From: Promethearchaeota archaeon
GTDB lineage: Archaea > Asgardarchaeota > Lokiarchaeia > Sigyniarchaeales > SOKP01
Assembly: GCA_048937405.1 (NCBI GenBank)
Contig: JBHLNF010000011.1
Location: 42,119 to 106,118, forward strand
Reading direction: 5' to 3'
Length of the DNA stretch: 64,000 bases
Shown here: positions 8,688-57,640 of the stretch, piece by piece
How positions within the stretch are numbered: the stretch's first letter is position 1
How the letters are laid out: every line of letters starts with the position of its first letter
Made by a program: the position numbers and the translations under genes
Notes under the pieces: generated by a model
Databases searched by the model: none
What the model was told of the DNA's origin: nothing
The model's input: the letters and a program-made list of their open reading frames with translations, nothing else

Positions 8688-8758
8688 TGCGCCCGCCGGG
8701 AATTGAACCCGGGACGCTGGCTTGGGAAGCCAGCATATTACCACTATACTACGAGCGC
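8688..8758 (-). tRNA. tRNA-Gly(CCC), intronless, CCA not encoded
   Basis: Reverse complement GCGCTCGTAGTATAGTGGTAATATGCTGGCTTCCCAAGCCAGCGTCCCGGGTTCAATTCCCGGCGGGCGCA folds as a cloverleaf with anticodon CCC. Confidence 0.96.
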
Positions 8759-9083
8759 CAATTTATATGAGATTTGTGCTATTGAGGGGACTTTTTTTGG
8801 GATATATATTAATTAAATTTGATTACCTAATTAAAACTTTTTGATAACTGACAGAAGTATTTATTTTGTATCAGTATATAGAACAATTAGATAATCTCCA
8901 TACAAATATAACATTAAGTTACTATGTTTTTCATATTTTATACATCAATATTAAAAATATTTACTTTGTTTTTGAAATCATAGCTGTGATATACTAAATA
9001 ATGAACATTCATTAAAAATTCAATAAAAAAAAAGTTATAATAAAAAAGAATACATTGAGGATATTATATGGTGAAGCAGATTT

Positions 9084-10202: not shown

Positions 10203-10364
10203 CTTGTTTTCAATATTCTGAACAGCTCTAATTTGAAATATAAATGAGTTTATAAGGAGTATTACTTTTTAAGGTCTTAATTTAGTTTCCCCATCACAAA
10301 AAGACATTTATAATTAACCTATTAAATTATATTCTTTTTTAAGTCAATTTACGAGCATTTTAAA

Positions 10365-11015
10365 ATGGAAAATTTCAGGATAAACATTAATAAAACTTTA
10401 CAGAAAATATCATTTGGTGCATATGGATTAATATCTATTATATTTGGAGCTATAGGTGATTTAATTGCATATTTGATGTATCCAGGATATAATCCTTTAC
10501 GAAGAGCTGTAAGTTCATTATGTTTAGGGCCAGGTTGGTTATTTTTTCAATCAGGTACCGTAATTTCAGGTTTCTTTGCACTTTTATATTTAATTTCTCT
10601 TGAAAAAACATTTAATAAGGAAGAAGTCAATAATAATGTTAGAAAGTATGCTAAAATTTCAGGAACAATTTCCTGTACAACTTTTATGACATTAGGTGTT
10701 TTTTGCGGTTCTAATCTAATAATTGCATACATTCATGGAATTAGTGCTTTGATCACTTGGATTTCTGGTTTATTATATATTAGTTTTTATAATTTTTTAA
10801 TAATTAATTCATCAAATTATTCAAAAAAACTAGGTTATTGTGGATTAATTACAACCTTTACTTTGGGTTTAATGTTGGTTTTCTTTTTATTACATTTATT
10901 TCCAGCTTTGAGATTTTTAATGATTATTTTACCTAGTTTGGAATGGTTGAATACGTTATCACTAATTGTATGGTATCTGATTACATCGATTTATGTTATT
11001 CATAAAAAATATTAA
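10365..11015 (+). CDS. DUF998-like membrane protein
   Basis: Several TM helices, YPGYNP...VSSL motif, conserved His and EW. Confidence 0.6.
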   Translation: MENFRININKTLQKISFGAYGLISIIFGAIGDLIAYLMYPGYNPLRRAVSSLCLGPGWLFFQSGTVISGFFALLYLISLEKTFNKEEVNNNVRKYAKISGTISCTTFMTLGVFCGSNLIIAYIHGISALITWISGLLYISFYNFLIINSSNYSKKLGYCGLITTFTLGLMLVFFLLHLFPALRFLMIILPSLEWLNTLSLIVWYLITSIYVIHKKY

Positions 11016-11923: not shown

Positions 11924-12613
11924 ATGAAAGCGATTATTGAAATGCAAATTAAATATGAAAGAAATATTCAAATTAATAAAAAGGATGCATTGATAATTGT
12001 TGATATACAAAACGATTTTCTTCCCGGAGGCGCATTAGCGGTAAATGAGGGAGACTTAATTATTGATGATATTAATAAACTCGCTCAAAAATTTAAAGAT
12101 AATAAGGTTATCATTGTATTAACTCAAGATTGGCATCCAAAAAATCATTTATCGTTTGCTAGTAATCATAAAGGGAAAAAACCAGGAGATGAATATACAT
12201 CGAAAAATGGAGCTATTGGTCCAGTTTTATGGCCTGATCACTGTATACAAGGTACTAATGGGGCAAAATTTCATAAAGATCTAAATACACAATTAGCAAA
12301 TAAGATTATTCAAAAAGGTATACGTCGCAAGGTTGATAGTTATTCTGGATTTCGGGATAATGATAAAAAAACTGAAACTGGTTTGAGAAAATATCTCAAC
12401 TCAAAAAAAATTCAGCGAATTTTTATTTGTGGCTTAGCTCTAGATTATTGTTGCTACTATACAGCGATGGACGGTCTTGAGTTTGGTTATGAAGTATATT
12501 TCATAGAGCGATTAACAAGGGGAGTTGATTTACCAGAAGGTAATATAAATAATGCTCTTAGTAATATGAAGAAATCAGGTATCACATTTGCGGATATTGA
12601 TAGTTTCAAATAA
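11924..12613 (+). CDS. pncA: Nicotinamidase/pyrazinamidase
   Basis: DIQNDF, QDWH, WPDHC, QKG, DSYSGF, GLALDYC: catalytic D-K-C intact. Confidence 0.92.
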   Translation: MKAIIEMQIKYERNIQINKKDALIIVDIQNDFLPGGALAVNEGDLIIDDINKLAQKFKDNKVIIVLTQDWHPKNHLSFASNHKGKKPGDEYTSKNGAIGPVLWPDHCIQGTNGAKFHKDLNTQLANKIIQKGIRRKVDSYSGFRDNDKKTETGLRKYLNSKKIQRIFICGLALDYCCYYTAMDGLEFGYEVYFIERLTRGVDLPEGNINNALSNMKKSGITFADIDSFK

Positions 12614-42942: not shown

Positions 42943-43317
42943 ATGAATAACTTAGTAGTCAAAAATCTTACTAAAGAATTAGAGAGGATAAAAAATTTTA
43001 ATGAAATCATTGGAAATGCGATAGTAAATCGAAATGGCTTATTAATTTCGTCAAGTCTCCCTAGAGATATCGATGAAAGACGATTTGGAGCATTAGCTGC
43101 AACTATGTTTGAAGCAGTTGAAACAGCCACTTCAAGTTTTGATCAGAATCAAATCAAGAATTTGACTGTAGATTATCAGGATTGCCATTTAATAATCTTA
43201 GGAATTGATGATAAAATGATTAATGTTTCATTAATAGAGAAGGACACAAATTTAGGTTTAATTTTTATCGAAATTGAAGAGAGTATAAAAGAATTCAGAA
43301 AAATCATAGAAATGTGA
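42943..43317 (+). CDS. Roadblock/LC7 domain protein
   Basis: IIGNAIVNRNGLLISSSLP...ALAATMF...NLGLI. Confidence 0.88.
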   Translation: MNNLVVKNLTKELERIKNFNEIIGNAIVNRNGLLISSSLPRDIDERRFGALAATMFEAVETATSSFDQNQIKNLTVDYQDCHLIILGIDDKMINVSLIEKDTNLGLIFIEIEESIKEFRKIIEM

Positions 43318-43323
43318 TGATAT

Positions 43324-44061
43324 ATTTTAACTGAAGAACAAAAAGAAAGATATTCTAGGCAAATAATTTCTCCCTTTATTGGAGAGGAGGGACAAGAAAA
43401 GATTTCTAAGTTAAAAGTCCTTCAAATTGGCTGTGGAGGTTTGGGCAGTCCATTCGCATTATATTTAACAGCTGCTGGAATAAATCAACTAACTATTATA
43501 GATAATGATATTTTAGATATTTCTAATCTACAACGACAGATACTCTATAATGAAACCCAAATCGGTAAAGAGAAAATTAAATCTGCAAAAAATGTATTGA
43601 TTAAACTTAATTCTGGAGTCAATATAAATACTTATAAAGATTATATTGATGAGAATTCCATCAAGAAGTATCTAAAAGAAGAAAACTATGATTTTATTGT
43701 TGATTGTAGTGATAATTTTAAAACAAAATTTTTAGTCAATAAAATCGCTGTAGAAAATAACTTAAAAAGTGTGATCGCTGGAATAAAAGATTTCTATGGT
43801 CAAATAATGACTATCAATCCAAAAGTTTCCGCATGTTATCAATGTGTTTTCTCACCTATAGAAACTCCGTCAAATGAAGGTCCTTTACCAGTTATTGGGG
43901 TTACACCTGGAATTTTAGGAACGTTAGAAGCTTTAGAAGTAATAAAAACAGCTTTAGGGTTACCTAATTTAGAAAATAAAATTCTTATGGTTAATCTAAT
44001 AGATTTAAGGTTTAATATCATAGATATAATAAAGAATGAAAAATGTATTTGTTCATCATAA
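43324..44061 (+). CDS. ThiF/MoeB/UbaA-family E1-like adenylyltransferase; probable ATT start
   Basis: Frame extends upstream of the called TTG to ILTEEQKERYSRQI...GQEKI...IGCGGLG; also SNLQRQ, DCSDN, ACYQC and a terminal C.IC. Confidence 0.88.
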   Translation: MLTEEQKERYSRQIISPFIGEEGQEKISKLKVLQIGCGGLGSPFALYLTAAGINQLTIIDNDILDISNLQRQILYNETQIGKEKIKSAKNVLIKLNSGVNINTYKDYIDENSIKKYLKEENYDFIVDCSDNFKTKFLVNKIAVENNLKSVIAGIKDFYGQIMTINPKVSACYQCVFSPIETPSNEGPLPVIGVTPGILGTLEALEVIKTALGLPNLENKILMVNLIDLRFNIIDIIKNEKCICSS

Positions 44062-44086: not shown

Positions 44087-44644
44087 TTAGATTTTACTGA
44101 ACTCTGGATTATTTTCAAAAAAATTTTTGAATTCTTTTCCATTAATTACATAATCTCCTGAACTATTTTCCCCGATAAGATTTTCATCTTTAGGAAAATC
44201 CTTTAGAAATTTGGCTGGAACACCCCCCCATAATTGATTAGCAGGTATTTCTTTATTAGTAATTACCGCTCCAGCTGCGATCATAGAACCATCTTTCATT
44301 TTAGTATTATGTAATACATTACTACCAATACCAATTAAACACCCATTTCCTATTTCTGTTGGACCATGAATCATCGCATGGTGCCCAATTATGCAATTCG
44401 AGCCAATTTTAACATTAGTTCCAATTTCATTATGAATTGTAACATTTTCTTGGATACTTGTATTTTTTCCAATCTTAATTTTCCCCCAATCACCTCTTAA
44501 AATAGCCCCAAACCATATATTTGAACCTTCACCAATTATTACATCTCCAATAATTACTGCTGTAGGTGCTATATAAACAGATGGATGAATTACAGGTTTT
44601 CTTCCTGTCTTCGGACTTGGCATTATTATTGGTATAATTTTCAC
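44087..44644 (-). CDS. Gamma carbonic anhydrase family hexapeptide-repeat protein
   Basis: IGDVIIG...WFGAILRGD...IQENVTIH...IGH...IHG; exact start uncertain. Confidence 0.9.
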   Translation of the reverse strand: MKIIPIIMPSPKTGRKPVIHPSVYIAPTAVIIGDVIIGEGSNIWFGAILRGDWGKIKIGKNTSIQENVTIHNEIGTNVKIGSNCIIGHHAMIHGPTEIGNGCLIGIGSNVLHNTKMKDGSMIAAGAVITNKEIPANQLWGGVPAKFLKDFPKDENLIGENSSGDYVINGKEFKNFFENNPEFSKI

Positions 44645-44728: not shown

Positions 44729-45418
44729 TTACCAGAAATTCAAACTATTTTTAGTCGCGAACTTTATTCCCTTTTTAATCATTTTTTTTAGTGAATCGGT
44801 AATATTTCCAGGTGGAACATCAATACCTTTAGTTAGATCTATCAGAAAGTATGTTTCAAAATTAAAGTCAACACCATCTACAGCAGTATTATAACAACAG
44901 TAATCTAGTGCTAAACCACATATGAAAATTCTCTTAATATTAAAAGAATTCAAATATTCTTTCAATCCAGTTTCAGTTTTTTTATCATTTTCAAGAAAAG
45001 CTGAATAGCTATCGATTTCTGGGTTCATACCTTTTTGAATTATCTTATTAATCATTTTTGTATTGATTTCTTTGTGAAATCGCGCACCATAAGTATTTTG
45101 AACACAATGATCAGGCCATAAAATTGGTCCAATTGCCCCATCTTCAGAACTGAATTCATCTCCAGGATCTTTATTTGGATGATTGCTTGCGAAGGATAAA
45201 TGATTTGAAGGGTGCCAATCTTGAGAGTGCACAACGGTGCTATCAACAAAAAATTCAATTACATCATTAATACCATTTATTATTGAATCACCTTCTTCTA
45301 CAGGTAAAGCTCCCCCCGGGAGAAAATCATTCTGCATATCAATAATTAATAGAGCATCATATTTATTAGGGATAATTTTCTTTTCAATTTTTAAATCAAC
45401 ACCATAAAATTTTACCAT
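44729..45418 (-). CDS. pncA: Nicotinamidase/pyrazinamidase (second paralog)
   Basis: DMQNDF, QDWH, WPDHC, QKG, DSYSAF, GLALDYC; ATG at 45418 follows a GGAG SD. Confidence 0.92.
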   Translation of the reverse strand: MVKFYGVDLKIEKKIIPNKYDALLIIDMQNDFLPGGALPVEEGDSIINGINDVIEFFVDSTVVHSQDWHPSNHLSFASNHPNKDPGDEFSSEDGAIGPILWPDHCVQNTYGARFHKEINTKMINKIIQKGMNPEIDSYSAFLENDKKTETGLKEYLNSFNIKRIFICGLALDYCCYNTAVDGVDFNFETYFLIDLTKGIDVPPGNITDSLKKMIKKGIKFATKNSLNFW

Positions 45419-45563
45419 ACTTATCTCCACTTCCTTTAATTATTAAGTATATTTTAAAAAGTCTTTAAATCTAAATGAAAAGTAATAATGTCTGTAATTT
45501 ATGGTAATATTTAATTTCATATCTTAAAAAAAAGATAAATAAATAAAATTAAAAAAAAGAGGA

Positions 45564-47966
45564 TTAAAAATTCTGCATCATTAACCATTGAGTATATAGC
45601 TGAGAAAATTGCATCATAAAATTTGCATCATCTAATGTGCCACTTTTTAAATTATTTATAAGATTTACAATTTCGTTCTTTTTGCTTGTATGAAATTGTC
45701 TTATTCTATCAGAATCTACAACTTCTTCTAGCATATTCATAAATGTGTCCCAATCTATTTCTGTTGGAATTGCAATAGTAGTTTCTTTTTCCTCTACATT
45801 TTTAATCTTAAATATCCGTTGCTGTGCATAGAATTTCTTAACATATTCATATATCTGCTCACATACTCTTTCAAAATCTTGTGGATTATATTCAATGCCG
45901 GGAGGTTGTGAGAGTCCTGTAGTTATTATATCTTGCCATGAAACATCTGTTCCTTTCATGGGTAAGACAGGAACACTATATTTTCTAGAAAGTTCTAATT
46001 CATGAGCACAATCTACTGAATTGAATACGGATTTATTTGTACCTAAAAAGAATATAACATCACTAATAGGGACATTCTGATCCATAAAATCATCTATATT
46101 TCCAGATAAATCTTGCTCACAGAGAAGTACATCATATACTTCGGGTTTTTTCTCTAAATATTCACCTAATGCTGCCAATTTATAAGGTTCATAATCAACA
46201 ACTGCGTGGGATATAAAAATTGCCATACTAGCCCTCTGTTTGAGATAATCTCGTAGGGTATCCATATCACGTTTGATTAATTGTTTTTCTTCTTCTGATA
46301 ATGGATTTTCTTCAATATCAAAATTCTCTAAAGTTTCGAGTGACCATAACAAATATGGTAATGTTTTAAATTTATTACTTTTTAAAGAGATAGTACGAAT
46401 ATTTGAAGTGCCTATACTCTCTGGCAAGGTCTCCATTTGATTTTCAGCAAAGCTGATACTTCTTAAACTTTTACATTGTCCTATTGAGGAAGGGATGGAA
46501 GATAAATTATTCTTGTTAGCAATTAATCCACTGAGGGAAGTCATTCTATCAAAACAATTAGGTAATGAGACCAATACATTGTCGCTAACATCTAAAGTTG
46601 TCAATGATGATAAATTACATAGTTCAGAGGGTAGACTAGTTAATTGGTTTTTGTTTAACGTCAATTTCCCAAGGTTTTTTAAATTTCCTATCTCAATAGG
46701 TAAACTTTCGATTTCATTTCCTTCTAAATTAAGTTCTTTCAATTTCTCTAACTTTCCAATACTTGCAGGTAATTTTTTCAGTTTTCCATTTGTAACTCTC
46801 ATGTGCCATATATTAATTAATTCCCCTATTGAGCCTGGAAGCGATTCTAAAGGAGTTCCTCTTATATCAAGATAACTTAATTTGTTAAGTTCTCCGAAAT
46901 TTTCTGGCAAATTAATTATTTTACAATCTTGAATATTAAGACGTTCTAATCCTTTCATAAGTGCAAAGGATTGGGGTAAAGAAGTTATATTATTTTTACT
47001 TAAATCTAATCCAAATACTTTATCTAAATTACATATTGAATTTGGTAAGCTTTCAAGTGGATTTCCAGTAAAATTAATAGCATTCAAATTTTTCAAATTT
47101 CCAATTGATTCTGGAATTTTTTTGACTTGATTATTATCCAAACGAAATACTTTCAATGAGAGTAAATTTCCTATACTTTCAGGTAATTCATCAAGTTTAT
47201 TATCTTTTACAAGAAGAGTTTGGAGGTTTGATAAATTACCTATTGTATTGGGTAATTTATGCAAATCTAAAGAACTGATCTCCAAGCTTTCAAGTGAAGT
47301 AAGTTCTCCTATTGAGTCTGGTAATTGAGAAATTCGAGTTACTCCTAAGTCAAGAGAAATAAGTGACCTTAGTTGTCCTATATTAGATGGTAAATCTTCT
47401 ATATTGTTATGTCTAAGTGATAATTTTTTAAGAGCAAGTAGATTATATATACTTTCTGGAACACGGGTTAGTCTATTGTCACTTAAATCAAGTTCAGTTA
47501 AAGCTGTACAAGCCTCAATTTCCACGGGGATATCCCTTATTTTATTAGTGCGAAGATCCAATTTCTCAAGATTTTTTAAATTTGAAATCCAGCTTGGTAG
47601 TACTTTCAATTCATTTACTCCCAAATCAAGCTGTTTAAGAGCAGTACAGTTAACTAAGCTAGATGGAAGCTCATAAAGGTTATTTTGTTGGGCAGCAAGC
47701 CATTCTAAATTTGTTAATTCTCCAATAGATTCTGGGATAGTTTCAATTTTATTACCATAAAAAAGTAATGATTGAAGTTTTTTACAATTCCCGATATTTT
47801 CAGGTAAACCTGTAAGAGTTCCTCGAGTAACCTCAATTCGAATAACACGGTTATCTTCAACCCTAAAATTATTTGAACTCCAATCTGATCCCATCTTTTG
47901 TTCTAAATCCTTAAGAACTTCTATCTCTTCTATGGGAAGCGTATAGTTCATGTATTGATCGCTCAT
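45564..47966 (-). CDS. LRR-TIR protein with intact TIR catalytic Glu
   Basis: About 20 23-aa LRRs (LPxSIGxLxxLxxLxLxxN), then IFISH...SDVIFF...S.DCAHEL...VPVLP, then a helical C-terminal domain. Confidence 0.85.
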   Translation of the reverse strand: MSDQYMNYTLPIEEIEVLKDLEQKMGSDWSSNNFRVEDNRVIRIEVTRGTLTGLPENIGNCKKLQSLLFYGNKIETIPESIGELTNLEWLAAQQNNLYELPSSLVNCTALKQLDLGVNELKVLPSWISNLKNLEKLDLRTNKIRDIPVEIEACTALTELDLSDNRLTRVPESIYNLLALKKLSLRHNNIEDLPSNIGQLRSLISLDLGVTRISQLPDSIGELTSLESLEISSLDLHKLPNTIGNLSNLQTLLVKDNKLDELPESIGNLLSLKVFRLDNNQVKKIPESIGNLKNLNAINFTGNPLESLPNSICNLDKVFGLDLSKNNITSLPQSFALMKGLERLNIQDCKIINLPENFGELNKLSYLDIRGTPLESLPGSIGELINIWHMRVTNGKLKKLPASIGKLEKLKELNLEGNEIESLPIEIGNLKNLGKLTLNKNQLTSLPSELCNLSSLTTLDVSDNVLVSLPNCFDRMTSLSGLIANKNNLSSIPSSIGQCKSLRSISFAENQMETLPESIGTSNIRTISLKSNKFKTLPYLLWSLETLENFDIEENPLSEEEKQLIKRDMDTLRDYLKQRASMAIFISHAVVDYEPYKLAALGEYLEKKPEVYDVLLCEQDLSGNIDDFMDQNVPISDVIFFLGTNKSVFNSVDCAHELELSRKYSVPVLPMKGTDVSWQDIITTGLSQPPGIEYNPQDFERVCEQIYEYVKKFYAQQRIFKIKNVEEKETTIAIPTEIDWDTFMNMLEEVVDSDRIRQFHTSKKNEIVNLINNLKSGTLDDANFMMQFSQLYTQWLMMQNF

Positions 47967-50332
47967 TGTTGCTTACCCCCATAAAATTGTGTCATAGCTT
48001 TCTTTTGTTGTATAAATCCCATAAAAAGACCTGAAAGTTGAGTAAGAAACAATCCTTCTCCTCCGATTTTTGCCGATTGTAAGTTATTACATATTCCAGT
48101 TAATGATGGTTTGTTCTGTTCAAAAAATTCTTTCATTTCAGGCATATGAATGATGCGATCAAGTTCGGCTTTAAAGGTTCCAAAACCAGCAGGATCACTA
48201 ACGGCTACAGCTTCTTCTTTTTTTAAGATTATAGATTTATCTTTAAAAATATTATGAGAACGTTTTAATTGTTGAATATAACTATAGACATTTTCACAAA
48301 AACCATCAAAATCATCTGGAGTAAATTCGTGGCCTAACTCACGACTAAGATCTACAGTGGCTAGGTCACCCCAACCAACATCTAGACCTTTCAAAGGGAT
48401 TACTTCAATACCTTGACTTTTAGCACTTTTTAAAATTTGAACCATATCTGGAGAATTAATAGAACCTGCAGTAGCAAGAAATAGAACTAAATCAGTAGCA
48501 TTAAGGTTAGCTTCTATAGGAGGAAAAGTAGCAAATATTTCGCTTTTTTCTTCCAAGAATGCTGTTAAATCCGATATACGATGAGCTTCCGCATCTTTTT
48601 CTTTATAAATTAACATAACTGCAATACTTGCACGTTGACGACAATATTCCAGAATCGCACTGGTGTCTCTTTGAGAAATCTCTTGTTCTTCCTCTGAAAA
48701 TTGATTTTCTTTCACGTCTAACTCATTCAGAGATTCCATTGTATATATAAAATAAGGAAGATTTTTAAGTTGATTATTGGAGATACTTAGAACTGTTAAT
48801 GGAAGTTTTGTAATTACTTCTGGTATTTCTATCAACTGGTTTTCATTTAGATATAATCTTTCTAATGATCCCAAATTTGCTATTGAAGGGGGAATTTCTG
48901 TTATTTTATTACCTCCTATATAAAGCATATTTACTGATTTAAGCTGGTCTATGCAATCTGGAACTTTTTCAATGAGATTGTATGAAAGATCTAATTGAAA
49001 GACTTTTTTTAATCGACAAATAGAAGGAGGAATCTTTGAGATTCTATTTGATCTTAAGCTCAAAAAGCTCAAATCAACTAAGTCACCAATGGATTCAGGA
49101 ATCTCAGTTATTCGATTTGTGTCTAAGAAAAGTTCTTTAAGAGATTTCAATTGACCAATGTTACTTGGCAAAGATTTTAATCCATTTTCCTTACAATTAA
49201 AGATTTTTAGTTTTTTCAAATTACAAAAAGAACTAGGAAGTTCCAAGATCCCATTATATATAGCTTTATCGTCATTTGTTGACCAAGAACCCTCTAAATC
49301 CAATTCTTCTAATTCTGTCAGATTCCCAAAACTTTCAGGTAAAGCATCAAGCTTGTTCCATTTAAGTTTTAAGATTCTTAATTTTGTTAAATTTCCTATC
49401 GATTCAGGTAAAATATCCAATTCTTTCATTACCAAATTTAGACCAATTATATGTTGATTATCACATACAAAACCGAAATGATCTACTTTTACAGGTCTTT
49501 CAGACACTTCAATCCCATATTGTTTACCAATATCTTCCATACTTGGTTGAGAGGGCTGGGTTTTTACACCATATTGTGCAAGCATATTTTGTATTTTTTG
49601 ATATACCGACTGTGCATACTGTTTGGCTGATTGAATTGCCATTTCCTCACTCATTCCTAATAATGGGGTTAATAAAACAAGATTAGGGTCATTTGCACCT
49701 AATTGTTGTATTCCCACATCAATTGTGACTTTTAATTGAGCTTGGTATTCTGGTGTAATCATTGAATTATAATATTTAATACTTTCTTTTTCCAATTCTT
49801 CAAGTGATATTTGAGAGTATATTACCTCATTTATTCTTTGGGTAGCTTCTTTATTAATAGCCTGAAGTTTAAAATTTTGTTGCATAAACTTAGCCATTGT
49901 TTTTGCTTTTTGTTTTGCTTTAGCTTCATCCAATTCTAACATAGATTTCATTTGCTGGATAGAAGGATGGCTTTCTCCTAACATAGGAATAAGAGAATTA
50001 AGTTGTGCTTTAATATTTGATTTCATAGCTGGATTTATTTGAGCTAGGTATTGATTTTCATAAGTTTTTTCTAACTCTTCTAATGAAAGTTGTGCTAATC
50101 TTTCTTGTTCGGTTACTTGAGCTTTAAAAGCTTGAACTTGGGTGCTTAGAATTGTTTTGGCATCCATCTGTGGTGTTTGACGGCTTTCAGCTAATCTGAG
50201 TCTGGTTTCATCTCTCTTCTCAAGACAAGGAATTGCTTCTGCTATTAATTTTTCTACCTGTTCAAGAAATTCAACTTCTGAAGATATTAAGGAAACACCC
50301 TGATATTCTTTCAATTCTTCAATAATAATCAC
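47963..50332 (-). CDS. LRR-TIR-like paralog with degenerate TIR and N-terminal helical repeat insertion
   Basis: About 11 LRRs; C-terminus aligns with the neighbour (QRASIAV...DLVLFLAT..S.NSPDMVQIL...VIPLKG.DV.W.D); 4-bp stop/start overlap; start may be ATT at 50323. Confidence 0.8.
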   Translation of the reverse strand: MIIIEELKEYQGVSLISSEVEFLEQVEKLIAEAIPCLEKRDETRLRLAESRQTPQMDAKTILSTQVQAFKAQVTEQERLAQLSLEELEKTYENQYLAQINPAMKSNIKAQLNSLIPMLGESHPSIQQMKSMLELDEAKAKQKAKTMAKFMQQNFKLQAINKEATQRINEVIYSQISLEELEKESIKYYNSMITPEYQAQLKVTIDVGIQQLGANDPNLVLLTPLLGMSEEMAIQSAKQYAQSVYQKIQNMLAQYGVKTQPSQPSMEDIGKQYGIEVSERPVKVDHFGFVCDNQHIIGLNLVMKELDILPESIGNLTKLRILKLKWNKLDALPESFGNLTELEELDLEGSWSTNDDKAIYNGILELPSSFCNLKKLKIFNCKENGLKSLPSNIGQLKSLKELFLDTNRITEIPESIGDLVDLSFLSLRSNRISKIPPSICRLKKVFQLDLSYNLIEKVPDCIDQLKSVNMLYIGGNKITEIPPSIANLGSLERLYLNENQLIEIPEVITKLPLTVLSISNNQLKNLPYFIYTMESLNELDVKENQFSEEEQEISQRDTSAILEYCRQRASIAVMLIYKEKDAEAHRISDLTAFLEEKSEIFATFPPIEANLNATDLVLFLATAGSINSPDMVQILKSAKSQGIEVIPLKGLDVGWGDLATVDLSRELGHEFTPDDFDGFCENVYSYIQQLKRSHNIFKDKSIILKKEEAVAVSDPAGFGTFKAELDRIIHMPEMKEFFEQNKPSLTGICNNLQSAKIGGEGLFLTQLSGLFMGFIQQKKAMTQFYGGKQQ

Positions 50333-50477
50333 CTAATACAAATGATTATTGGAATTTTGATTTTATTTTTCAATTAGTATTATTAATGAAGCTTAAGAAT
50401 TTTTATATGTTTGCATTCACTATAATAAAAAATCTAATGAAAATAATTCAATATATATCTTTTCAAAAGTGATTAAG

Positions 50478-52928
50478 ATGGAAAAACCATCTGTCGAAAG
50501 TAAGAAATCTAATATAAATATTGATGAACGAACTACTACTGAAGCTAAAATTTCAAAAAAAGTAATTGAAACTGTACTATCGTATCATAGCCTTGAAGTA
50601 AGAGATATTGAGATTAGTCCTGATGGAAATTTCTTAATCTCCTGCTCTGAATATGAAGAAAATGAAAATCCTTACTTAATTGTTTGGAATATTGGCCAAC
50701 TTTTAGAAGGAGATACTACACCTGAAGTTAAACTTCAAGCAGAGAATAAAGTGAATAAATACACTAAAATTACAAATTGGCTTTTATGCGCTGATTCTAC
50801 GGTTGTTGAAATTGAAGGCATAAAATGGTGGGTAATATGCTCTGGAAGTATTGGTGGAGATATCTATATATGGTCTTTTAGACTTACTCCCGATTTAAGA
50901 AAATGGGATTTTAAGAATTATAAAACGGTTATCCTATCTGGAGGGAATGGAAATGATGAAAAATATCCAAAAGCTATATTTGATATCAAGATTCAAAAAG
51001 AAAAAAGTCAAGACAATATGCTCCACATTTATTTTGTACTAAATAATATACATACATCAATATGGAAAGAAAAAACTAATGATAACACCCTTAATAAAGT
51101 GGATATTACTCTTGATAGCTCTGGAATAATTTCAAGAATAGATAACATTAAAGTAATTGGTAGAAATGATGTTTGGATAACTAAATTAATGATTAAAAGA
51201 GATTTAGAAGAAGAAATATTATTTACTGGTTCTAAAGATGGTAAAGTAAATCTATGGAATATTGGGATCGAAAAAGATCCAATGTTGATAGGTGAACATG
51301 ATGGTGCAATAACAGATATCAGTATAATCCAAAATGGTAAAATGATTGCTTCATCATCTACAGATACAAAAATAACCATATGGGAACAAGAGTATGCAAA
51401 TAAATATCGTAAAAAAATAGATCTACTTGGACATACTGAAGCTGTTTTATCACTTGATGTTCAAACTGATAACAATTTTATGGTTTCGGCTTCTAAAGAT
51501 AACACCATTAAAATTTGGGATTTAAACAATTTTAGGTGGATAAGAAGTATAGATATACATCATTATTTAGAGGACTATGAAAAAATTAAAGGGAGTGTTA
51601 GGCAAAATGTTATAATAAAGGGATTAGACTTTGTAAGAAATATCAAAATAACTCCTGAAAATCGTTATATCTTTGTCACCAAGTATAACAGAATTATTAT
51701 TCTACGTAATTTTGGTAGTGTATGGCATTTTATTCAGCAATTAAAATTCATTAAAAAAAACGATCCTGAATTATATCGAAAGATTTATGGAAATAATTTA
51801 AAGCAAATAGCTAAACACAGCCCAGAAAATGAAGAATCTCTCGGTAATTTATACAATATACTGAAAAAACGCTTAATAAAAAGCAGGAAAATGGAGTTAG
51901 AAGGGAAAACTGAACAAAAAATAGAATATAATATGCGTGAACTTGGTACTCTTTTTATACCTTTTTTTATGAAATTTGAATCAAAATTAAAATCCCAAAA
52001 GCAATTTATCTTAGGAACAAAACAAAATTACGAAGCATATTGGCATAGTGTAAGAAATTCTATATTTAAACACCCAGATATCCCTTGGGGATTTAAATTA
52101 TATATTACAACTTCAGAGATGGATGAAAGGATTGAAGATTCCAATTTTGTTGAAATCACAGCTCGAACTGGAGAAATACCATATATCATTCTTGATGATC
52201 GTTCTCAGACACAAATCCGGTTTTTAATGGTATTAAATAATGTTCAAACCAATTTTATTCCTCTGTTAAACAATATTTCTATAGATATCGAAGATGATCG
52301 TGGAGATAAAGATACTTTAGTTTTTTCTGATTTCACTTATTCTAAAAATTTCCTACGAATTTTAACAAATCCAACACGATCTTTAGATAAGGTCAAAAAG
52401 ATCAATGAACCGGATTATATTTATTATGCTGATTGCACTTTTCAGATTGATGAAGGCTATTGCACTGATAATTTTGCAAATATTTTTATAAGGAAAATAA
52501 CAGTAGAATATACCGAGACTTTAGAACCATCAGAATCAATAACAAGTGATGAAGAAGATTTTAAAATCTTTGAAGCTTTTAGAAAAAATTTTATTTATCC
52601 ATTAACTCCGAAAACTAAGATCCAAATAGGTAAAGGTTTAAAATCAAAACTGGGAAAAATGATTGATGAATACTTTACTAAAATAATCATTATAGAATTT
52701 ATATTGAGTTTATGGGGTATAATTGAAAGTGGATTAGCCCGCACAGAACTTAGTCAGAATTTACTTGAAAGGATTTCAGCAATCGTGGATGTAGCATCTA
52801 TTCTTATTATTGCTATCATTTTCATAATGATATTTGTTCAATCACGCGGTGGAAAAAAAAGAGAGATTGATATAGAAGAATTAGATCAAAAAATGAGAAA
52901 AAGGAGGAGAAGAAAATTTGGAAAATAA
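50478..52928 (+). CDS. WD40-repeat protein with C-terminal two-TM anchor
   Basis: GSKDGKVNLWN, SSSTDTKITIWE, GHTEAV...SASKDNTIKIWD; two hydrophobic helices then a basic tail. Confidence 0.82.
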   Translation: MEKPSVESKKSNINIDERTTTEAKISKKVIETVLSYHSLEVRDIEISPDGNFLISCSEYEENENPYLIVWNIGQLLEGDTTPEVKLQAENKVNKYTKITNWLLCADSTVVEIEGIKWWVICSGSIGGDIYIWSFRLTPDLRKWDFKNYKTVILSGGNGNDEKYPKAIFDIKIQKEKSQDNMLHIYFVLNNIHTSIWKEKTNDNTLNKVDITLDSSGIISRIDNIKVIGRNDVWITKLMIKRDLEEEILFTGSKDGKVNLWNIGIEKDPMLIGEHDGAITDISIIQNGKMIASSSTDTKITIWEQEYANKYRKKIDLLGHTEAVLSLDVQTDNNFMVSASKDNTIKIWDLNNFRWIRSIDIHHYLEDYEKIKGSVRQNVIIKGLDFVRNIKITPENRYIFVTKYNRIIILRNFGSVWHFIQQLKFIKKNDPELYRKIYGNNLKQIAKHSPENEESLGNLYNILKKRLIKSRKMELEGKTEQKIEYNMRELGTLFIPFFMKFESKLKSQKQFILGTKQNYEAYWHSVRNSIFKHPDIPWGFKLYITTSEMDERIEDSNFVEITARTGEIPYIILDDRSQTQIRFLMVLNNVQTNFIPLLNNISIDIEDDRGDKDTLVFSDFTYSKNFLRILTNPTRSLDKVKKINEPDYIYYADCTFQIDEGYCTDNFANIFIRKITVEYTETLEPSESITSDEEDFKIFEAFRKNFIYPLTPKTKIQIGKGLKSKLGKMIDEYFTKIIIIEFILSLWGIIESGLARTELSQNLLERISAIVDVASILIIAIIFIMIFVQSRGGKKREIDIEELDQKMRKRRRRKFGK

Positions 52929-53784
52929 AAAATTAAATATTATTATAACCAGTTCGGTTCAAAATGATTTCATTGAACCGTTAGATATTCACCCCACATC
53001 AGAAGATAGTTTAAAATTAGGTTATGGTCAAGTTTCAGATAAATGGATGGAGTACTTTTTGAATCAGAAAAGGGATACAAGTGAAGCAAATGTTGATCAA
53101 TTTATTTCATGGCTAAAAAATAATTCCAGTAGTGAAGTGATTGGAGGTGCTCTATCATACCATCATATCTTAGAGCATTATAGACATAGAGTTCATATTG
53201 ACTATGATGAAAGTAGAAGAATATGGGAAGGTGAAAAATTAAGCCAATTTATACGAGAATTAATGATTAAAGCATCTGACTCCAATTCAAATGAGATGAG
53301 AGGAATAGAATATCAATGCATTCATCTAAGGGATTGGCATGACCAAACAGACGAATCTCAAAAGGGTGAGATGGATCTTTTTGGACCTCACTGTATTAAA
53401 GGTACATATGGAGCGAAATTTATTTCACCCTTAGATGAGTTAATACAAAAACATCATGAATTTAACGTTATTTTAAATTCAAACAGCCTTAGTTCCTTCG
53501 ATGAGACAGATCTCGAACATGTACTAGATACGGTTATTAAAAATGCAGGGAGTTCCCATAAAGAAGTTAAAATTGGAGTTTTTGGGGTAATTACTAACGT
53601 AAAAGTTTTTCTTTTAACTTTTGAGCTTATGACTATCCATAAATTTAGAAATGTTTATGTCTGTGGTGATTTCTGTGCTGGTTTTAACAAACAAGGACAT
53701 CAAGCAGGTATTAGCGCTATGGCTAGTATCTTAGCGGCAAATATAGTTGATCATAATAAATTTAGAGAAATCTTTAATATATAA
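52918..53784 (+). CDS. Divergent isochorismatase/nicotinamidase-fold protein, probably non-catalytic
   Basis: SVQNDF, RDWH, FGPHCIKGTYGA, GVITNVKV; 11-nt overlap with the WD40 gene; AGGAGG SD. Confidence 0.75.
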   Translation: MENKKLNIIITSSVQNDFIEPLDIHPTSEDSLKLGYGQVSDKWMEYFLNQKRDTSEANVDQFISWLKNNSSSEVIGGALSYHHILEHYRHRVHIDYDESRRIWEGEKLSQFIRELMIKASDSNSNEMRGIEYQCIHLRDWHDQTDESQKGEMDLFGPHCIKGTYGAKFISPLDELIQKHHEFNVILNSNSLSSFDETDLEHVLDTVIKNAGSSHKEVKIGVFGVITNVKVFLLTFELMTIHKFRNVYVCGDFCAGFNKQGHQAGISAMASILAANIVDHNKFREIFNI

Positions 53785-53880
53785 GAAATTCATTTTTTTT
53801 AATTTTTTTTTTATATAAGAACTTATTTTGATTAAAAGCTTTATTCATAATAGTAGCAAAATAAATTTTTTAATGTTTAT

Positions 53881-54822
53881 ATGAATACAAAACAATTACA
53901 AGATATTATATTAGCCTTAAAGAAAGAAAATGATGTAACAATTCTAGCTCATTATTATCAGCCAATAGAAATTCAAGAAATTGCTGATTTTGTGGGAGAT
54001 TCTCTTGGCTTATCTCGTACAGCAAAAAATAAACCAAATGAATATATAATATTCGCTGGAGTCGATTTTATGGCTGAAACTGCATCAATTTTAAATCAAG
54101 ATAAACATGTCCTAATCCCTAATTATGAATCTTGTTGTCCAATGGCAGCTTATCTTACACCTGAAATGATAAGAGAATTTAAAAAAAAGTATCCAGATCT
54201 ACCTGTTGTTGTATATGTTAATTCTACTGCAGCTGTAAAAGCAGAATCTGATATCTGTTGTACTTCTTCAAATGCAATTAAGATCGTTAATAAAATTAGT
54301 CAAGAATTTGGGGTTTCCTCTGTATTATTCGGTCCAGATGCAAATCTAGCTGATTATACAGAACAAAAATCTGAAATAGAATGTATAAAAATGCCAGAGG
54401 AAGGTCATTGTTATGTGCATTCACAAATTAAACCAGAACACATAGATAAAGTAAAAGAAAAACATCCTCATGCAAAACTGCTTGTTCATCCAGAATGTAT
54501 TAGAGATGTGAGGGAATTAGCGGATTTTGTAGGATCAACAACACAAATGTATAATAGGGTAAAAAATAGTACTCTTGATGAAAAAGAATTTCTTATCGGT
54601 ACTGAGGAGGCATTTAGAGAACGTTTGACTCAAGATTTTAAAGATAAAAATTTTTACACAGTTAAAGACAATTTGATTTGTTTTAATATGAAAAAGCATA
54701 ATCTTGAGCTTATCAAATATATCCTCAAGAACCTTAATGACCAAGCTTTTGAAGTCAAAGTTCCATCTGATATTGCTAAAAAGGCTTTAATTCCAATTAA
54801 TAAAATGTTAAATTATTCTTAG
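53881..54822 (+). CDS. nadA: Quinolinate synthase
   Basis: LAHYYQ, GDSL, FMAETA, CPMA, YVNSTA.VKA.SDICCTSSNA, HPEC, GST, C.NMK. Confidence 0.96.
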   Translation: MNTKQLQDIILALKKENDVTILAHYYQPIEIQEIADFVGDSLGLSRTAKNKPNEYIIFAGVDFMAETASILNQDKHVLIPNYESCCPMAAYLTPEMIREFKKKYPDLPVVVYVNSTAAVKAESDICCTSSNAIKIVNKISQEFGVSSVLFGPDANLADYTEQKSEIECIKMPEEGHCYVHSQIKPEHIDKVKEKHPHAKLLVHPECIRDVRELADFVGSTTQMYNRVKNSTLDEKEFLIGTEEAFRERLTQDFKDKNFYTVKDNLICFNMKKHNLELIKYILKNLNDQAFEVKVPSDIAKKALIPINKMLNYS

Positions 54823-56116: not shown

Positions 56117-57640
56117 TCACAAAAATTTTGTAATTCTTGTTTGCTTTTTATCATCAAGAAACCTTAAGAAAGATTTAGTTGGTTTTCCTGAATAAATTGC
56201 ATGCAAATTAGTTTTTTTCTCGAAATTTTTAATATCACTATAATTAAAATTATTTTTTTTCATTAATTTACTTAATTTAAATACCCATTTCACAAAATTC
56301 TTGTAAAGTCGACCATTAATACCTGCTTTTGACTTATGGGTTTCCTCATAGAATTTAATATCATCTTGATTATAAGCTGTAAAATTTCTATAGTTTTGAC
56401 CCATCCAAAAGAAATGGGATACTGATTCCGAAAATTCTTTAATTCTACAACCTGTTAATTTAACTATCTTTAATTTTGGTAATTTATTTAATAAATCAGG
56501 AATCTCTTCAATGTCTATATTACCTGAAAGATCTAAAAACTCTAAATTATTAAGACCTTCTAACCATTCAAGTTTTTTAATATAATTGTTTTTCATAGAT
56601 AATTTCTTCAAGTTTTTTAATTTCTCGAGTCCCTTTAAACTTGTAATCCTATTGTGACTTAAATCTAATTCTATAATTTCCTCAGAATATTCTCCTAATC
56701 CTTCGACATTTTCTATAATTTCAATCATTTTGTTTTTTAAATTAACTTTTGAATCCAATACAATCCCTACCAATCTGTCATTATAAGAAATGATCTTAAG
56801 ATCTAAATTGTCATAATTTACTTGAGCTTTATTTAAAAATTTCAGTACGGGAAAGCTTCTTACATTCTTATATTTATTATAGATAATTACTACAAATTCT
56901 TGTCTTGTTTTCTCTGGTAACTTCTCTATTGCTTTAAGTAGTATTAAATATTTATATTTGAAACGAAATCTATTTATAAAAATAGTAGTATATTGTTTTA
57001 TTTGTTGAACAACTTCAGGATCATTAAGATTATATAGTAATGGTATAATTCTTCTTGTGTATTCATCAATACTTGGGAAATCTATATCAATTAACATACT
57101 TTCAAATTCGTCTTCTGTCAAATAATATAAATACCCATTTTGTGTTAGGAACCTAATCACTGTTGGATGCCCAGTTGCATATCTTATAGCAATTTCTTCT
57201 TTAAATTTTCGTTTAGCAATGGGATCACCCGCATCAACAAGTGCTTTTAATAAAGGAAACGCTAGATTTCGATGAAGAATTCGAGTATCATATTCGTTTT
57301 CAACCCAAGCTTGTATATTTGAGCAATGTCCCCAAAATTCTGTCTCAGGTGGAACTCTCTGGTGATTACTTTCCATTGAACGATCTAATTTGACTGCAGC
57401 TTCATCTATAGATTTAATCTCATCATATTCATCAATCTGATCTATGGGAATATTTATTAAAAGATACATACATTGTCTAAACACACGATTGTTTACATAG
57501 ATCATTGTTCTTCCTCCCTCAAGCTTCATTTTAAGATATCTATTAACAATAAATTCCTTCTTATGAATTTGTGTTCTAATAGATTTAAAAAAGAGAATTG
57601 AGAAGAGAACTAATAAAACTAATATCTGATATTTAAACAT
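56117..57640 (-). CDS. Lokiarchaeal-type LRR protein
   Basis: EF.VN.Y..MKLE.G.T.IYV...FWGHCSNIQAWVEN.YDTRILHRNLAFPLLK domain plus SDS22-like LRRs; start uncertain. Confidence 0.8.
   Translation of the reverse strand: MFKYQILVLLVLFSILFFKSIRTQIHKKEFIVNRYLKMKLEGGRTMIYVNNRVFRQCMYLLINIPIDQIDEYDEIKSIDEAAVKLDRSMESNHQRVPPETEFWGHCSNIQAWVENEYDTRILHRNLAFPLLKALVDAGDPIAKRKFKEEIAIRYATGHPTVIRFLTQNGYLYYLTEDEFESMLIDIDFPSIDEYTRRIIPLLYNLNDPEVVQQIKQYTTIFINRFRFKYKYLILLKAIEKLPEKTRQEFVVIIYNKYKNVRSFPVLKFLNKAQVNYDNLDLKIISYNDRLVGIVLDSKVNLKNKMIEIIENVEGLGEYSEEIIELDLSHNRITSLKGLEKLKNLKKLSMKNNYIKKLEWLEGLNNLEFLDLSGNIDIEEIPDLLNKLPKLKIVKLTGCRIKEFSESVSHFFWMGQNYRNFTAYNQDDIKFYEETHKSKAGINGRLYKNFVKWVFKLSKLMKKNNFNYSDIKNFEKKTNLHAIYSGKPTKSFLRFLDDKKQTRITKFL

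What the first reader, a model, noticed from the sequence alone, without database searches (positions are those of the whole stretch)
44729..54822. TIR locus embedded in NAD salvage and synthesis genes: candidate NAD-centred immune or signalling system
Seen: pncA lies 133-145 bp downstream of the LRR-TIR pair on the same strand. Divergently, across about 140 bp, run WD40-TM, a nicotinamidase-like pseudoenzyme and nadA. A second intact pncA exists at 11924, so the copy here is extra. Known: catalytic TIRs cleave NAD+ to nicotinamide plus ADPR or cyclic variants, PncA removes nicotinamide, and NadA feeds de novo NAD synthesis. Inference: the locus may couple sensing, NAD cleavage, product read-out and NAD recovery, making it a reversible signalling circuit rather than a purely suicidal defence.
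Basis: partly seen in the sequence, partly recalled or inferred. Interest (0 to 1): 0.78.

Follow-up and report, generated by a model that had tools for sequence, protein, structure and literature searches.

The report
TIR-linked dead-nicotinamidase membrane module
An Asgard archaeon carries a mobile two-gene module (a membrane-anchored WD40 protein plus a nicotinamidase that kept its metal site but lost its catalytic residues) that repeatedly sits beside, and is once fused to, NAD-cleaving TIR proteins and a dedicated nicotinamidase, which points to an undescribed NAD/nicotinamide-based signalling or defence system; the neighbouring nadA gene is only a bystander.

Summary
Every gene in the finding is real and at the stated coordinates. 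Comparative genomics changes which parts matter.

- **Core.** The conserved unit is WD40-TM (50478-52928) plus a pseudo-nicotinamidase, "IsoLike" (52918-53784). They are adjacent in 20/20 loci. The stand-alone type occurs only in this class (24/399 phylum genomes) and is patchy (15/53 in the genus).
- **IsoLike.** It has lost the Asp/Lys/Cys triad but keeps the Asp-His-His metal site.
- **TIR link.** TIR proteins of four architectures flank the core: an LRR-TIR pair, a single LRR-TIR, TIR-TPR and PCMT-TIR. A TIR-IsoLike fusion exists in metagenomes.
- **The pair here.** LRR-TIR A keeps the catalytic Glu. B has Ile there and a BB-loop deletion. B occurs only beside the core.
- **Extra pncA.** It is not a local duplicate. 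It is a xenolog that groups (100/99) with another genus's core-adjacent pncA.
- **nadA.** It is a backbone gene beside a variable slot, which holds a NUDIX gene in core-less relatives. nadA is not a component.
- **Prior knowledge.** PADLOC has no match, and I found no paper describing the module.

The mechanism I propose (TIR product sensed by IsoLike, WD40-TM as output, PncA as reset) is inferred. First readers of this scan noted the same module in other genomes; those notes are unchecked.

The parts
50478..52928 (+). Core gene 1. Cytoplasmic WD40 propeller (about residues 1-370), then a conserved helical bundle and a beta-sandwich of no recognised family, then a C-terminal two-helix membrane hairpin and a basic tail. 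The ORF is open from a GTG at 50469; the database protein starts at the ATG at 50478.
   Evidence: Pfam WD40. Conserved next to IsoLike in 20/20 loci. 23 invariant residues in the C-terminal half. AF2 model pLDDT 79.3. No clear PDB fold match. Family of 49 clusters, all Promethearchaeota, all unnamed.
52918..53784 (+). Core gene 2, IsoLike: a nicotinamidase-fold protein that lacks the Asp/Lys/Cys triad (Ser, none, Lys229) but keeps the D139-W-H141 and H158-C159 metal-site motifs. It has an insertion of about 100 aa and overlaps the WD40-TM gene by 11 nt.
   Evidence: Pfam Isochorismatase 33.3 bits. No NCBIfam PncA hit. Alignments A1 and A4. PDB profile alignment to nicotinamidases. Family-wide fusions to TCAD9, DSP phosphatase, kinase and TIR.
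45564..47966 (-). LRR-TIR A: about 20 LRRs, a C-terminal TIR domain and a helical tail. It keeps the candidate catalytic Glu (residue 656, motif CAHELELS).
   Evidence: Pfam LRR. TIR by family profile, PDB profile and fold. The Glu aligns with the RPS4 alpha-C Glu.
45822..46229 (-). TIR domain of A (approximate bounds).
   Evidence: AF2 model elements bA-aE. Foldseek top hits are TIR structures, E 1e-4 to 1e-3, TM about 0.6 normalised to the target.
47963..50332 (-). Partner B: an N-terminal Gln/Met-rich helical domain (about 290 aa), LRRs and a degenerate TIR-like domain (Ile at the Glu position, 11-residue deletion in the BB-loop region). It overlaps A by ATGA.
   Evidence: 30% identical to the A tail. 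Occurs only beside the core.
44729..45430 (-). PncA2: an intact extra nicotinamidase of a module-linked lineage, 133 bp downstream of A.
   Evidence: NCBIfam equivalog 202.6 bits. Triad and metal ligands present. At this position only in G000, G061 and G076. Clade with the G042 core-adjacent PncA, 100/99.
50333..50477 (.). Divergent intergenic region between B and WD40-TM; presumed to hold both promoters.
   Evidence: Coordinates only. Not analysed further.
53881..54822 (+). NadA (quinolinate synthase). A backbone neighbour, not a module component.
   Evidence: Pfam 359 bits. Single copy. Same backbone position in core-less relatives.
11924..12613 (+). PncA1: the genome's ordinary nicotinamidase. 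Listed for context; not part of the module.
   Evidence: 218 bits. Falls in the genus PncA clade.

Best explanation
**What it is.** The locus is a mobile, lineage-specific NAD/nicotinamide-centred signalling or defence module of Promethearchaeia.

**Invariant core.** A membrane-anchored WD40 protein is translationally coupled to a nicotinamidase-derived protein, IsoLike. IsoLike can no longer hydrolyse by the nicotinamidase mechanism, but it keeps the metal centre that in real nicotinamidases holds the pyridine ring.

**Variable input.** TIR-domain proteins with sensor repeats (LRR, TPR) supply the input. In this genome the input is a pair: A has an intact TIR glutamate, and B has a degenerate TIR plus an extra N-terminal domain.

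**Proposed sequence of events (inferred, not shown)**
1. The LRR pair detects a trigger, and the TIR of A cleaves NAD+.
2. IsoLike binds nicotinamide, or another pyridine-bearing TIR product, without destroying it.
3. IsoLike acts on its WD40-TM partner, whose two-helix hairpin gives a membrane-level output.
4. The dedicated PncA2 removes nicotinamide. That resets the signal and feeds salvage.

**Shown:** gene content, residue states, TIR fold, synteny, the fusion, the phylogeny of PncA2, and the positional nature of nadA.

**Inferred:** NADase activity, the ligand, the protein contacts, the output, and whether the trigger is a virus.
For: **Core**
- WD40-TM and IsoLike are adjacent on the same strand in 20/20 loci, down to 23%/36% identity and across four families of the class.
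- The two genes overlap by 11 nt.

**IsoLike**
- The triad is replaced (Asp to S/T/C/N, Lys lost, Cys to Lys). D-W-H and H-C are invariant.
- The same mapping holds against solved nicotinamidases.
- The Lys that replaces the Cys is nearly invariant in 105 family representatives, so the state is selected and not decay.

**TIR link**
- LRR-TIR pair in 8 fetched genus loci (B-type proteins are in 11 of 54 genus genomes), single LRR-TIR in g6, TIR-TPR in G142, PCMT-TIR in G157.
- G157 has only 2 TIR_2 genes in 5.1 Mb, and one of them is at the core.
- The G142 TIR belongs to a different TIR clade (99/99).
- TIR-IsoLike fusion P0043: 2 sequences on 3 contigs.
- Chance estimates: P about 6e-5 to 8e-4, or 1e-3 to 8e-3 with g1 and g6 merged.

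**A and B**
- A is TIR-like by profile and by fold, and keeps the Glu. B lacks it.
- B is found only beside the core.

**PncA**
- Adjacent in three arrangements, in genomes that almost always have a single copy. P about 1e-6 to 1e-5.
- PncA2 groups with the G042 core-adjacent PncA (100/99), away from PncA1.

**Hallmarks of a conflict system**
- Patchy distribution: 25/160 in the class, 15/53 in the genus.
- It sits in a variable slot, and G106 has a 48-50% identical variant in the same slot.

**Wider family**
- The wider IsoLike family is fused to TCAD9 kinase-like domains and to DSP phosphatases, including the type Pfam names 'fused to NAD+ kinase'.
Against: - No experiment exists. NADase activity, ligand binding and any phenotype are all untested.
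- Several core-bearing genomes have no TIR within the fetched flanks: G059, G062, G031, G074, G106, G022 and G042. In G042 (78% complete) no TIR was found at all with either profile. So the core does not strictly need an adjacent TIR.
- These genomes are rich in TIR and LRR genes (16 subfamily TIR genes here). Such genes may also cluster in islands, which would inflate my chance estimates. The lineages were defined after seeing the data, and g1 and g6 may be a single event.
- IsoLike descends from PncA, so some PncA adjacency could be a leftover of the original duplication.
- The invariant Lys/Thr/His/Cys residues in IsoLike could form a new active site. 'Receptor' is therefore not proven.
- The C-terminal module of WD40-TM has no recognisable fold relative, so the output is guesswork.
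- PADLOC gives no support for a defence role.
Confidence: 0.55

Rival explanations
1. NAD-homeostasis regulator rather than an immune system. IsoLike senses the free nicotinamide/nicotinate level and, through the membrane-bound WD40 protein, adjusts some membrane process such as niacin uptake or export, or a redox process. PncA and the TIR NAD consumers are linked to it as ordinary players in NAD turnover.
For: - PncA adjacency includes the only detected PncA of G042 and of G157.
- The slot next to nadA holds a NUDIX gene in core-less relatives, so it is NAD/nucleotide-themed either way.
- G042 has the core and PncA but no detectable TIR.
- PADLOC finds nothing.
Against: - A housekeeping regulator would not be expected in only 25/160 genomes of the class and 15/53 of the genus.
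- It would not be expected in a variable slot with a 48-50% identical allelic variant.
- It would not be expected to recruit sensor-repeat TIR proteins of several architectures, including an active/degenerate pair.
Confidence: 0.2
2. IsoLike is a neo-enzyme, not a receptor. The invariant Lys, Thr, His and Cys residues around the retained metal form a new active site that processes a TIR product or another pyridine compound. It would make or destroy the signal rather than read it. The link to TIR and PncA remains.
For: - Lys229, Thr226, His261 and Cys249 are invariant.
- The Lys and Thr are nearly invariant across 105 representatives.
- The family is fused mainly to enzymes (TCAD9/APH-like kinase, DSP phosphatase), as in a multi-step small-molecule pathway.
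Against: - All three residues that drive isochorismatase-superfamily hydrolysis are gone.
- No known chemistry of this fold uses the substituted set (my own knowledge, not a test).
Confidence: 0.15
3. Coincidental neighbourhood. The WD40-TM/IsoLike pair has nothing to do with TIR. LRR and TIR genes are so common in these genomes, and so prone to gather in variable regions, that they land beside the core by chance.
For: - There are 16 or more TIR genes per genome.
- About half of the core lineages have no adjacent TIR.
- The slot is a hot spot for gene turnover.
Against: - The TIR-IsoLike fusion.
- One of only two TIR genes of G157 is at the core.
- B-type proteins are never found away from the core.
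- A module-linked PncA lineage exists.
- Chance estimates are 1e-3 or lower.
Confidence: 0.1

Closest known systems
Thoeris (ThsB TIR sensor plus a ThsA effector that binds the TIR product)
   Same: - A TIR protein with the conserved glutamate is encoded beside separate genes that could read its NAD-derived product.
- Distribution is patchy and island-like.
- A membrane-anchored candidate effector recalls the transmembrane effectors of type II Thoeris (my own knowledge).
   Different: - No SIR2, SLOG or Macro effector is present, and no PADLOC model matches any gene.
- The TIR is fused to LRRs and comes as an active/degenerate pair.
- The candidate receptor has a nicotinamidase fold.
- A dedicated PncA is attached.
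- The host is archaeal.
- The TIR is optional at the locus.
Plant paired TIR immune receptors (RPS4/RRS1)
   Same: - Two adjacent LRR- and TIR-containing genes.
- One keeps the catalytic Glu. The other lacks it and carries an extra domain (the N-terminal Gln/Met-rich domain of B).
- RPS4 and RRS1 TIR structures are among the fold hits.
   Different: - There is no NB-ARC/STAND NTPase.
- The TIR is C-terminal to the LRRs.
- The genes are co-directional and overlapping, not head-to-head.
- There is no evidence of shared descent beyond the domains themselves.
PncA / Pnc1 nicotinamidases (isochorismatase superfamily)
   Same: IsoLike shares the fold signature and the Asp-His-His metal ligands. PncA2 and PncA1 are full members.
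   Different: IsoLike lacks the Asp, Lys and Cys of the catalytic triad, has an insertion of about 100 aa, and fails the NCBIfam PncA model.
TCAD9 kinase-like / DSP-phosphatase proteins with an N-terminal isochorismatase-like domain (mostly uncharacterised)
   Same: They carry the same pseudo-nicotinamidase clade, with the same Cys-to-Lys change: 53 of 105 representatives carry TCAD9. Earlier scan note e1-780285 describes such a bacterial protein.
   Different: In those proteins the domain is fused to kinase-like and phosphatase domains. Here it stands alone and is coupled to a WD40-TM gene. Their taxa and contexts were not examined here.
SARM1 (a TIR NADase gated by an NAD-metabolite-binding domain)
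   Same: The concept is the same: a TIR NADase whose circuit includes a domain that reads a pyridine-nucleotide metabolite. SARM1 TIR is among the fold hits.
   Different: The SARM1 sensor is an ARM domain in the same polypeptide. Here the candidate sensor has a nicotinamidase fold and is encoded by a separate gene.

Membership tests
TIR domain (A, 45564-47966) | Flavodoxin-like TIR fold | tested here: met
   AF2 model pLDDT 82.7. The Foldseek top hits are TIR structures (SPARTA, AbTir, SARM1, RPS4; E 1e-4 to 1e-3), though CheY-like folds follow closely.
TIR domain (A, 45564-47966) | Sequence match to a TIR family model above threshold | tested here: inconclusive
   A itself scores 18.6 bits against the 28-bit cutoff. 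However, 11 of 15 aligned family members pass E<=0.01 (best 2.8e-16), and the family profile hits TIR chains in the PDB.
TIR domain (A, 45564-47966) | Conserved catalytic glutamate at the start of helix C | tested here: met
   Glu656 (CAHELELS) aligns with the Glu of RPS4 'CvrELe' and lies in model helix 77-88, directly after strand C.
TIR domain (A, 45564-47966) | NAD+ cleavage activity | not testable with these tools
   This needs a biochemical assay.
TIR domain (B, 47963-50332) | Catalytic glutamate and intact BB-loop region | tested here: not met
   Ile occupies the Glu position in all three B orthologs aligned, and 11 residues are deleted. No Pfam TIR hit. It is homologous to A (30% identity, E 4.5e-28).
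PncA nicotinamidase (44729-45430) | Equivalog model score plus the Asp/Lys/Cys triad and metal ligands | tested here: met
   NF008623, 202.6 bits against 174. The motifs IDMQNDF, IQKG, DYC, DWH and DHC are present.
PncA nicotinamidase (IsoLike, 52918-53784) | Asp/Lys/Cys catalytic triad | tested here: not met
   Ser, no Lys, and Lys229 at the three positions, in all 12 orthologs. The same mapping holds against solved nicotinamidases. No NCBIfam hit.
PncA nicotinamidase (IsoLike, 52918-53784) | Metal-binding Asp-x-His and His | tested here: met
   D139, H141 and H158 are invariant and align with DGHD and PPHN of 3s2s. That these residues are the metal ligands rests on my own knowledge of PncA structures.
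Thoeris | ThsA-type effector (SIR2/SLOG or Macro/TM) and ThsB-type TIR recognised by defence-system models | tested here: not met
   No PADLOC hit at E<=1 for A, B, their tails, IsoLike or PncA2. WD40-TM gives only a spurious repeat hit. 3 of 15 TIR family members hit ThsB_TIR weakly.
nadA as part of the module | Adjacency kept where the module occurs outside this genus, or lost where the module is absent | tested here: not met
   nadA is next to the core only in genus g1. It holds the same backbone position in the core-less genomes G056, G060, G082 and G104.

The most novel reading that the evidence does not exclude
The WD40-TM/IsoLike pair is a new class of TIR-signal receiver. A nicotinamidase turned receptor would read the pyridine side of NAD+ cleavage: nicotinamide, or a base-exchange product. 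Every characterised TIR pathway reads the ADP-ribose side instead. The receptor would drive a membrane effector, and a dedicated nicotinamidase would act as the off-switch. If so, this is a reversible, metabolite-timed immune or signalling circuit in the archaeal relatives of eukaryotes. The same receptor domain would be reused in bacteria with kinase and phosphatase partners.
Probability: 0.25. Interest if true: 0.9.

Novelty: new variant of a known kind. Interest (0 to 1): 0.72.

Why it matters
- **A different read-out of TIR activity.** Known TIR immune pathways (Thoeris, plant TNLs, SARM1, SPARTA) either read ADP-ribose-derived signals or simply drain NAD+. A conserved receptor-like protein built from a nicotinamidase, together with a dedicated nicotinamidase, would mean that the other cleavage product, nicotinamide, can also carry information and can be actively cleared.
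- **A testable candidate.** The module is compact and has clear residue-level predictions. It comes from Asgard archaea, where the origin of eukaryote-type LRR/TIR/WD40 signalling is an open question.
- **A lead on a larger family.** The result also flags 420 clusters of the same pseudo-nicotinamidase, mostly fused to TCAD9 kinase-like and DSP phosphatase domains, whose function is unknown.

Tried and rejected
Contexts of metagenomic homologs such as P0006 and P0010 could not be read, so I used the genome search and the fetch from genomes instead.
- **PADLOC** gave no meaningful hit for any gene.
- **Pfam** found nothing for the C-terminal half of WD40-TM or for the N-terminal domain of B.
- **Fold search of the WD40-TM C-terminal model.**
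  - Foldseek found no hit at E<=1e-3. There were only weak resemblances of the beta-sandwich to RhoGDI/UNC119-type lipid-binding sandwiches (TM 0.4-0.54), which I do not rely on.
  - The wide VIA search matched only the helical hairpin and is uninformative.
- **ESM Atlas for IsoLike** returned only generic isochorismatase clusters.
- **Context of the TIR-IsoLike fusion.** The genome-contig scan found nothing. The single metagenome contig is 1.9 kb, so it gives no neighbours.
- **Literature.** No paper in the library links isochorismatase or nicotinamidase pseudoenzymes to TIR or Thoeris. PMC7159879 and PMC9503650 do not mention isochorismatase, nicotinamidase or TCAD9 in their main text.
- **Rejected: nadA as a functional part**.
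- **Rejected: pncA2 as a recent in-genome duplicate of pncA1**.
- **Unresolved: orthology of the g6 LRR-TIR with A.** The tree is a polytomy.

Full report
**1. What is in the sequence**

The window is contig C16:42119-106118 of a 4.47 Mb Promethearchaeota (Asgard) genome (source names). ORF listing and family scans give this gene order:

- gamma-carbonic-anhydrase-like hexapeptide protein, 44087-44644(-)
- PncA, 44729-45430(-)
- LRR protein A, 45564-47966(-)
- LRR protein B, 47963-50332(-), ATGA overlap with A
- a divergent gap of about 140 bp
- WD40 protein, 50469/50478-52928(+)
- isochorismatase-like protein "IsoLike", 52918-53784(+), 11-nt overlap with the WD40 gene
- NadA, 53881-54822(+)

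A second PncA lies at 11924-12613(+). Both PncAs pass the NCBIfam equivalog cutoff (202.6 and 218 bits against 174).

**2. Are A and B TIR proteins?**

Pfam alone is not convincing. TIR_2 scores 18.6 bits on the A tail, below the 28-bit cutoff, and finds nothing on B.

I aligned 15 tails from orthologs and paralogs (A2).
- 11 of the 15 hit TIR_2, best E 2.8e-16.
- The profile's PDB hits are TIR proteins. The family's conserved Glu aligns with the helix-C Glu of RPS4.
- An AF2 model (pLDDT 82.7) has as top Foldseek hits SPARTA TIR-APAZ, AbTir, SARM1, a B. cereus TIR, RPS4/RRS1 and TcpB.

A keeps the Glu (residue 656, CAHELELS). All B orthologs have Ile there and lack 11 residues where the BB-loop lies. 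So A is a plausible NADase and B is a degenerate partner. B also carries an extra N-terminal helical domain of about 290 aa with no family match.

This TIR subfamily has 16 members in the genome.

**3. The pseudo-nicotinamidase**

I aligned IsoLike and 11 orthologs with four true PncAs (A1; A4).
- The catalytic Asp is S/T/C/N.
- The Lys is absent.
- The nucleophile Cys is an invariant Lys (GVITNVK).
- D-W-H and H-C are invariant.

A profile search of PDB sequences aligns RDWHD with DGHD, aHC with PPHN, 'ns' with DK, and 'tnvK' with TDIC of solved nicotinamidases. That Asp, His and His are the metal ligands which position the pyridine nitrogen is my own knowledge of PncA structures.

The protein is under clear constraint, with 28 invariant columns.

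**4. What is conserved around it**

IsoLike orthologs occur in 25 of 160 genomes of the class (15 of 53 in the genus) and in none of 239 genomes of other classes of the phylum. I fetched 20 loci and mapped the window's proteins onto them.

- WD40-TM and IsoLike are adjacent on the same strand in all 20 loci, down to 23% and 36% identity in a higher-GC genome of another family (G157).
- Everything else varies.
- NadA is adjacent only within genus g1.
- The A+B pair is present in 8 g1 loci and absent in G059 and G062, where WD40-TM abuts ThiF or gCA directly.
- PncA sits downstream of A only in G000 and G061. G076 has the same arrangement on a split contig.

**5. nadA is a bystander**

The genus shares this backbone: HGD-HGD-o102-Roadblock-ThiF-gCA-[variable]-NadA-(LRR3)-(Fer4)-HTH.

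In the core-less genomes G056, G060, G082 and G104, NadA holds the same position. The variable slot there holds a NUDIX-domain gene, with or without an MFS transporter and an aminotransferase. G106 has a 48-50% identical version of the core in the same slot. NadA is single-copy. Its adjacency to the core is therefore positional.

The slot holds nucleotide/NAD-related genes in both states. I note this but cannot interpret it.

**6. The TIR link is not chance**

Four architectures of TIR protein lie next to the core:
- the divergent A+B pair (g1)
- a single co-directional LRR-TIR directly upstream (three g6 genomes)
- a TIR-TPR protein downstream (G142)
- a PCMT-TIR (TIR_2, 52.9 bits) two genes upstream (G157)

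Further points:
- G157 has only two TIR_2 genes in 5.1 Mb.
- The G142 TIR belongs to a different TIR clade from the LRR-TIRs (99/99). Whether g1 and g6 are one event is unresolved.
- B-type proteins occur in 11 of 54 genus genomes. All of these are core-bearing, and B lies on the same contig as the core wherever the assembly allows. B is never found elsewhere.
- A profile search of 1.84 billion representatives found P0043 as its second-best hit. P0043 is a 438-aa protein with a Glu-bearing TIR_2 domain (44.4 bits) fused to a full-length IsoLike (E 1.4e-103). It is seen as two sequences on three contigs from two sources.

Using TIR counts per genome, a Poisson-binomial estimate gives P of about 6e-5 to 8e-4 for four or more of nine lineages. 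With g1 and g6 merged it gives 1e-3 to 8e-3. These are rough figures: the lineages were defined after seeing the data, and gene clustering is ignored.

**7. The PncA link**

PncA is single-copy in almost all of the 126 genomes that have it. It is adjacent to the core in three arrangements:
- PncA-WD40TM-IsoLike in G157
- WD40TM-IsoLike-PncA in G042
- downstream of A in G000, G061 and G076

The chance estimate is about 1e-6 to 1e-5.

In a maximum-likelihood tree of 32 PncAs (the 30 best-scoring loci, plus G157 and PncA1), PncA2 of the three genomes groups with the G042 core-adjacent copy at 100/99. PncA1 sits in the genus clade at 99/96. So the extra copy is a xenolog of a module-linked PncA lineage and not a local duplicate.

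Caveats: G042 is only 78% complete, so 'sole copy' is uncertain there. Because IsoLike descends from PncA, some adjacency may be ancestral.

**8. The WD40-TM protein**

- There is no signal peptide.
- The C-terminal half has 23 invariant residues.
- It folds with confidence (pLDDT 79.3, pTM 0.69) into a helical bundle, a beta-sandwich and a two-helix hydrophobic hairpin, followed by a basic tail.
- No solved structure matches convincingly.
- The family (49 clusters) is confined to Promethearchaeota and is unnamed.

I infer a cytoplasmic protein anchored by the hairpin. Its activity is unknown.

**9. The wider IsoLike family**

The profile search found 420 clusters at E<=1e-3. Of 105 representatives scanned:
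- 53 carry TCAD9, a kinase-like domain
- 25 carry APH
- about 16 carry DSP phosphatases
- 8 match the model named 'DSP-PTPase fused to NAD+ kinase'
- 2 carry protein kinases
- 1 carries TIR

The Cys-to-Lys change is nearly invariant across the family. So this is a distinct, selected clade that is used as a module in signalling proteins. Earlier scan note e1-780285 describes one such bacterial protein.

**10. Interpretation**

The best reading is a mobile NAD/nicotinamide-centred signalling or defence module.
- The invariant part is WD40-TM plus IsoLike.
- The inputs are interchangeable TIR sensors.
- The accessory in some lineages is a dedicated PncA.

The mechanism is inference: TIR cleaves NAD+, IsoLike binds the pyridine product at its retained metal site, WD40-TM delivers a membrane output, and PncA resets the signal.

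Points against:
- Half of the lineages have no adjacent TIR.
- G042 has no detectable TIR at all.
- IsoLike may be a neo-enzyme.
- There is no PADLOC match.
- There are no experimental data.

I put the general link at about 0.55 and the specific receptor model at about 0.25.

**11. Novelty**

I found no catalogue entry and no paper that describes the module or the TIR/pseudo-nicotinamidase link.

It works most like Thoeris-type systems (TIR plus a separate effector), but it fails their membership test. I therefore file it as a new variant of a known kind. The core gene pair is itself an undescribed family.

Noticed in passing
window 49463-50332 (-): The N-terminal ~290 aa of B is a Gln/Met-rich helical domain with no Pfam match. 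It is absent from A and from the other LRR-TIR paralogs. It is conserved (65-82% identity) in all 10 orthologs and found nowhere else in the genus. It could be an integrated sensor or decoy domain.
   Followed up: partly
L090:3757-4182, L091:4686-5144, L092:6127-7800, L093:6165-7838: In same-genus genomes without the core, the slot between gCA and nadA holds a NUDIX-domain gene. It is either a 141-152 aa protein or a 557-aa protein with about 430 uncharacterised N-terminal residues. In the two genomes with the short form, an MFS transporter and a class-V aminotransferase are also present.
   Followed up: partly
L043 (G106:C4) 8748-10810: G106 carries a WD40-TM/IsoLike pair only 48-50% identical to the window's, in the same backbone slot. 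The flanking backbone genes are 62-84% identical. This suggests allelic replacement or accelerated divergence of the module.
   Followed up: no
L047:3055-3777 and L041:10967-11401: Small ORFs with no Pfam match (240 aa and 144 aa) sit between the TIR gene and the core in G157 and G142. They may be further module components.
   Followed up: no
window 56117-57640 (-) and 42943-43317 (+): The backbone around the slot includes another LRR-only protein (LRR3, conserved in the genus) and a Roadblock/LC7 protein. A Ras/Roc GTPase lies divergent from the core in G142 (L041:6486-7274).
   Followed up: no
G000 C7:721146-726967 (L002, L003) and C19:163273-167688 (L006, L007): The genome holds two further tandem pairs of TIR genes: two LRR-TIRs on C7 (42-44% identical to the A tail) and two short TIR proteins on C19, one of them interrupted by stop codons. 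None is near a second IsoLike, which is single-copy in this genome.
   Followed up: partly
window 43441-44061 (+): The ThiF/E1-like ORF as listed starts at position 32 of the Pfam model, so its true start probably lies upstream of the first canonical start codon. An earlier first-reader note (e1-5562396) suggests ATT initiation there.
   Followed up: no
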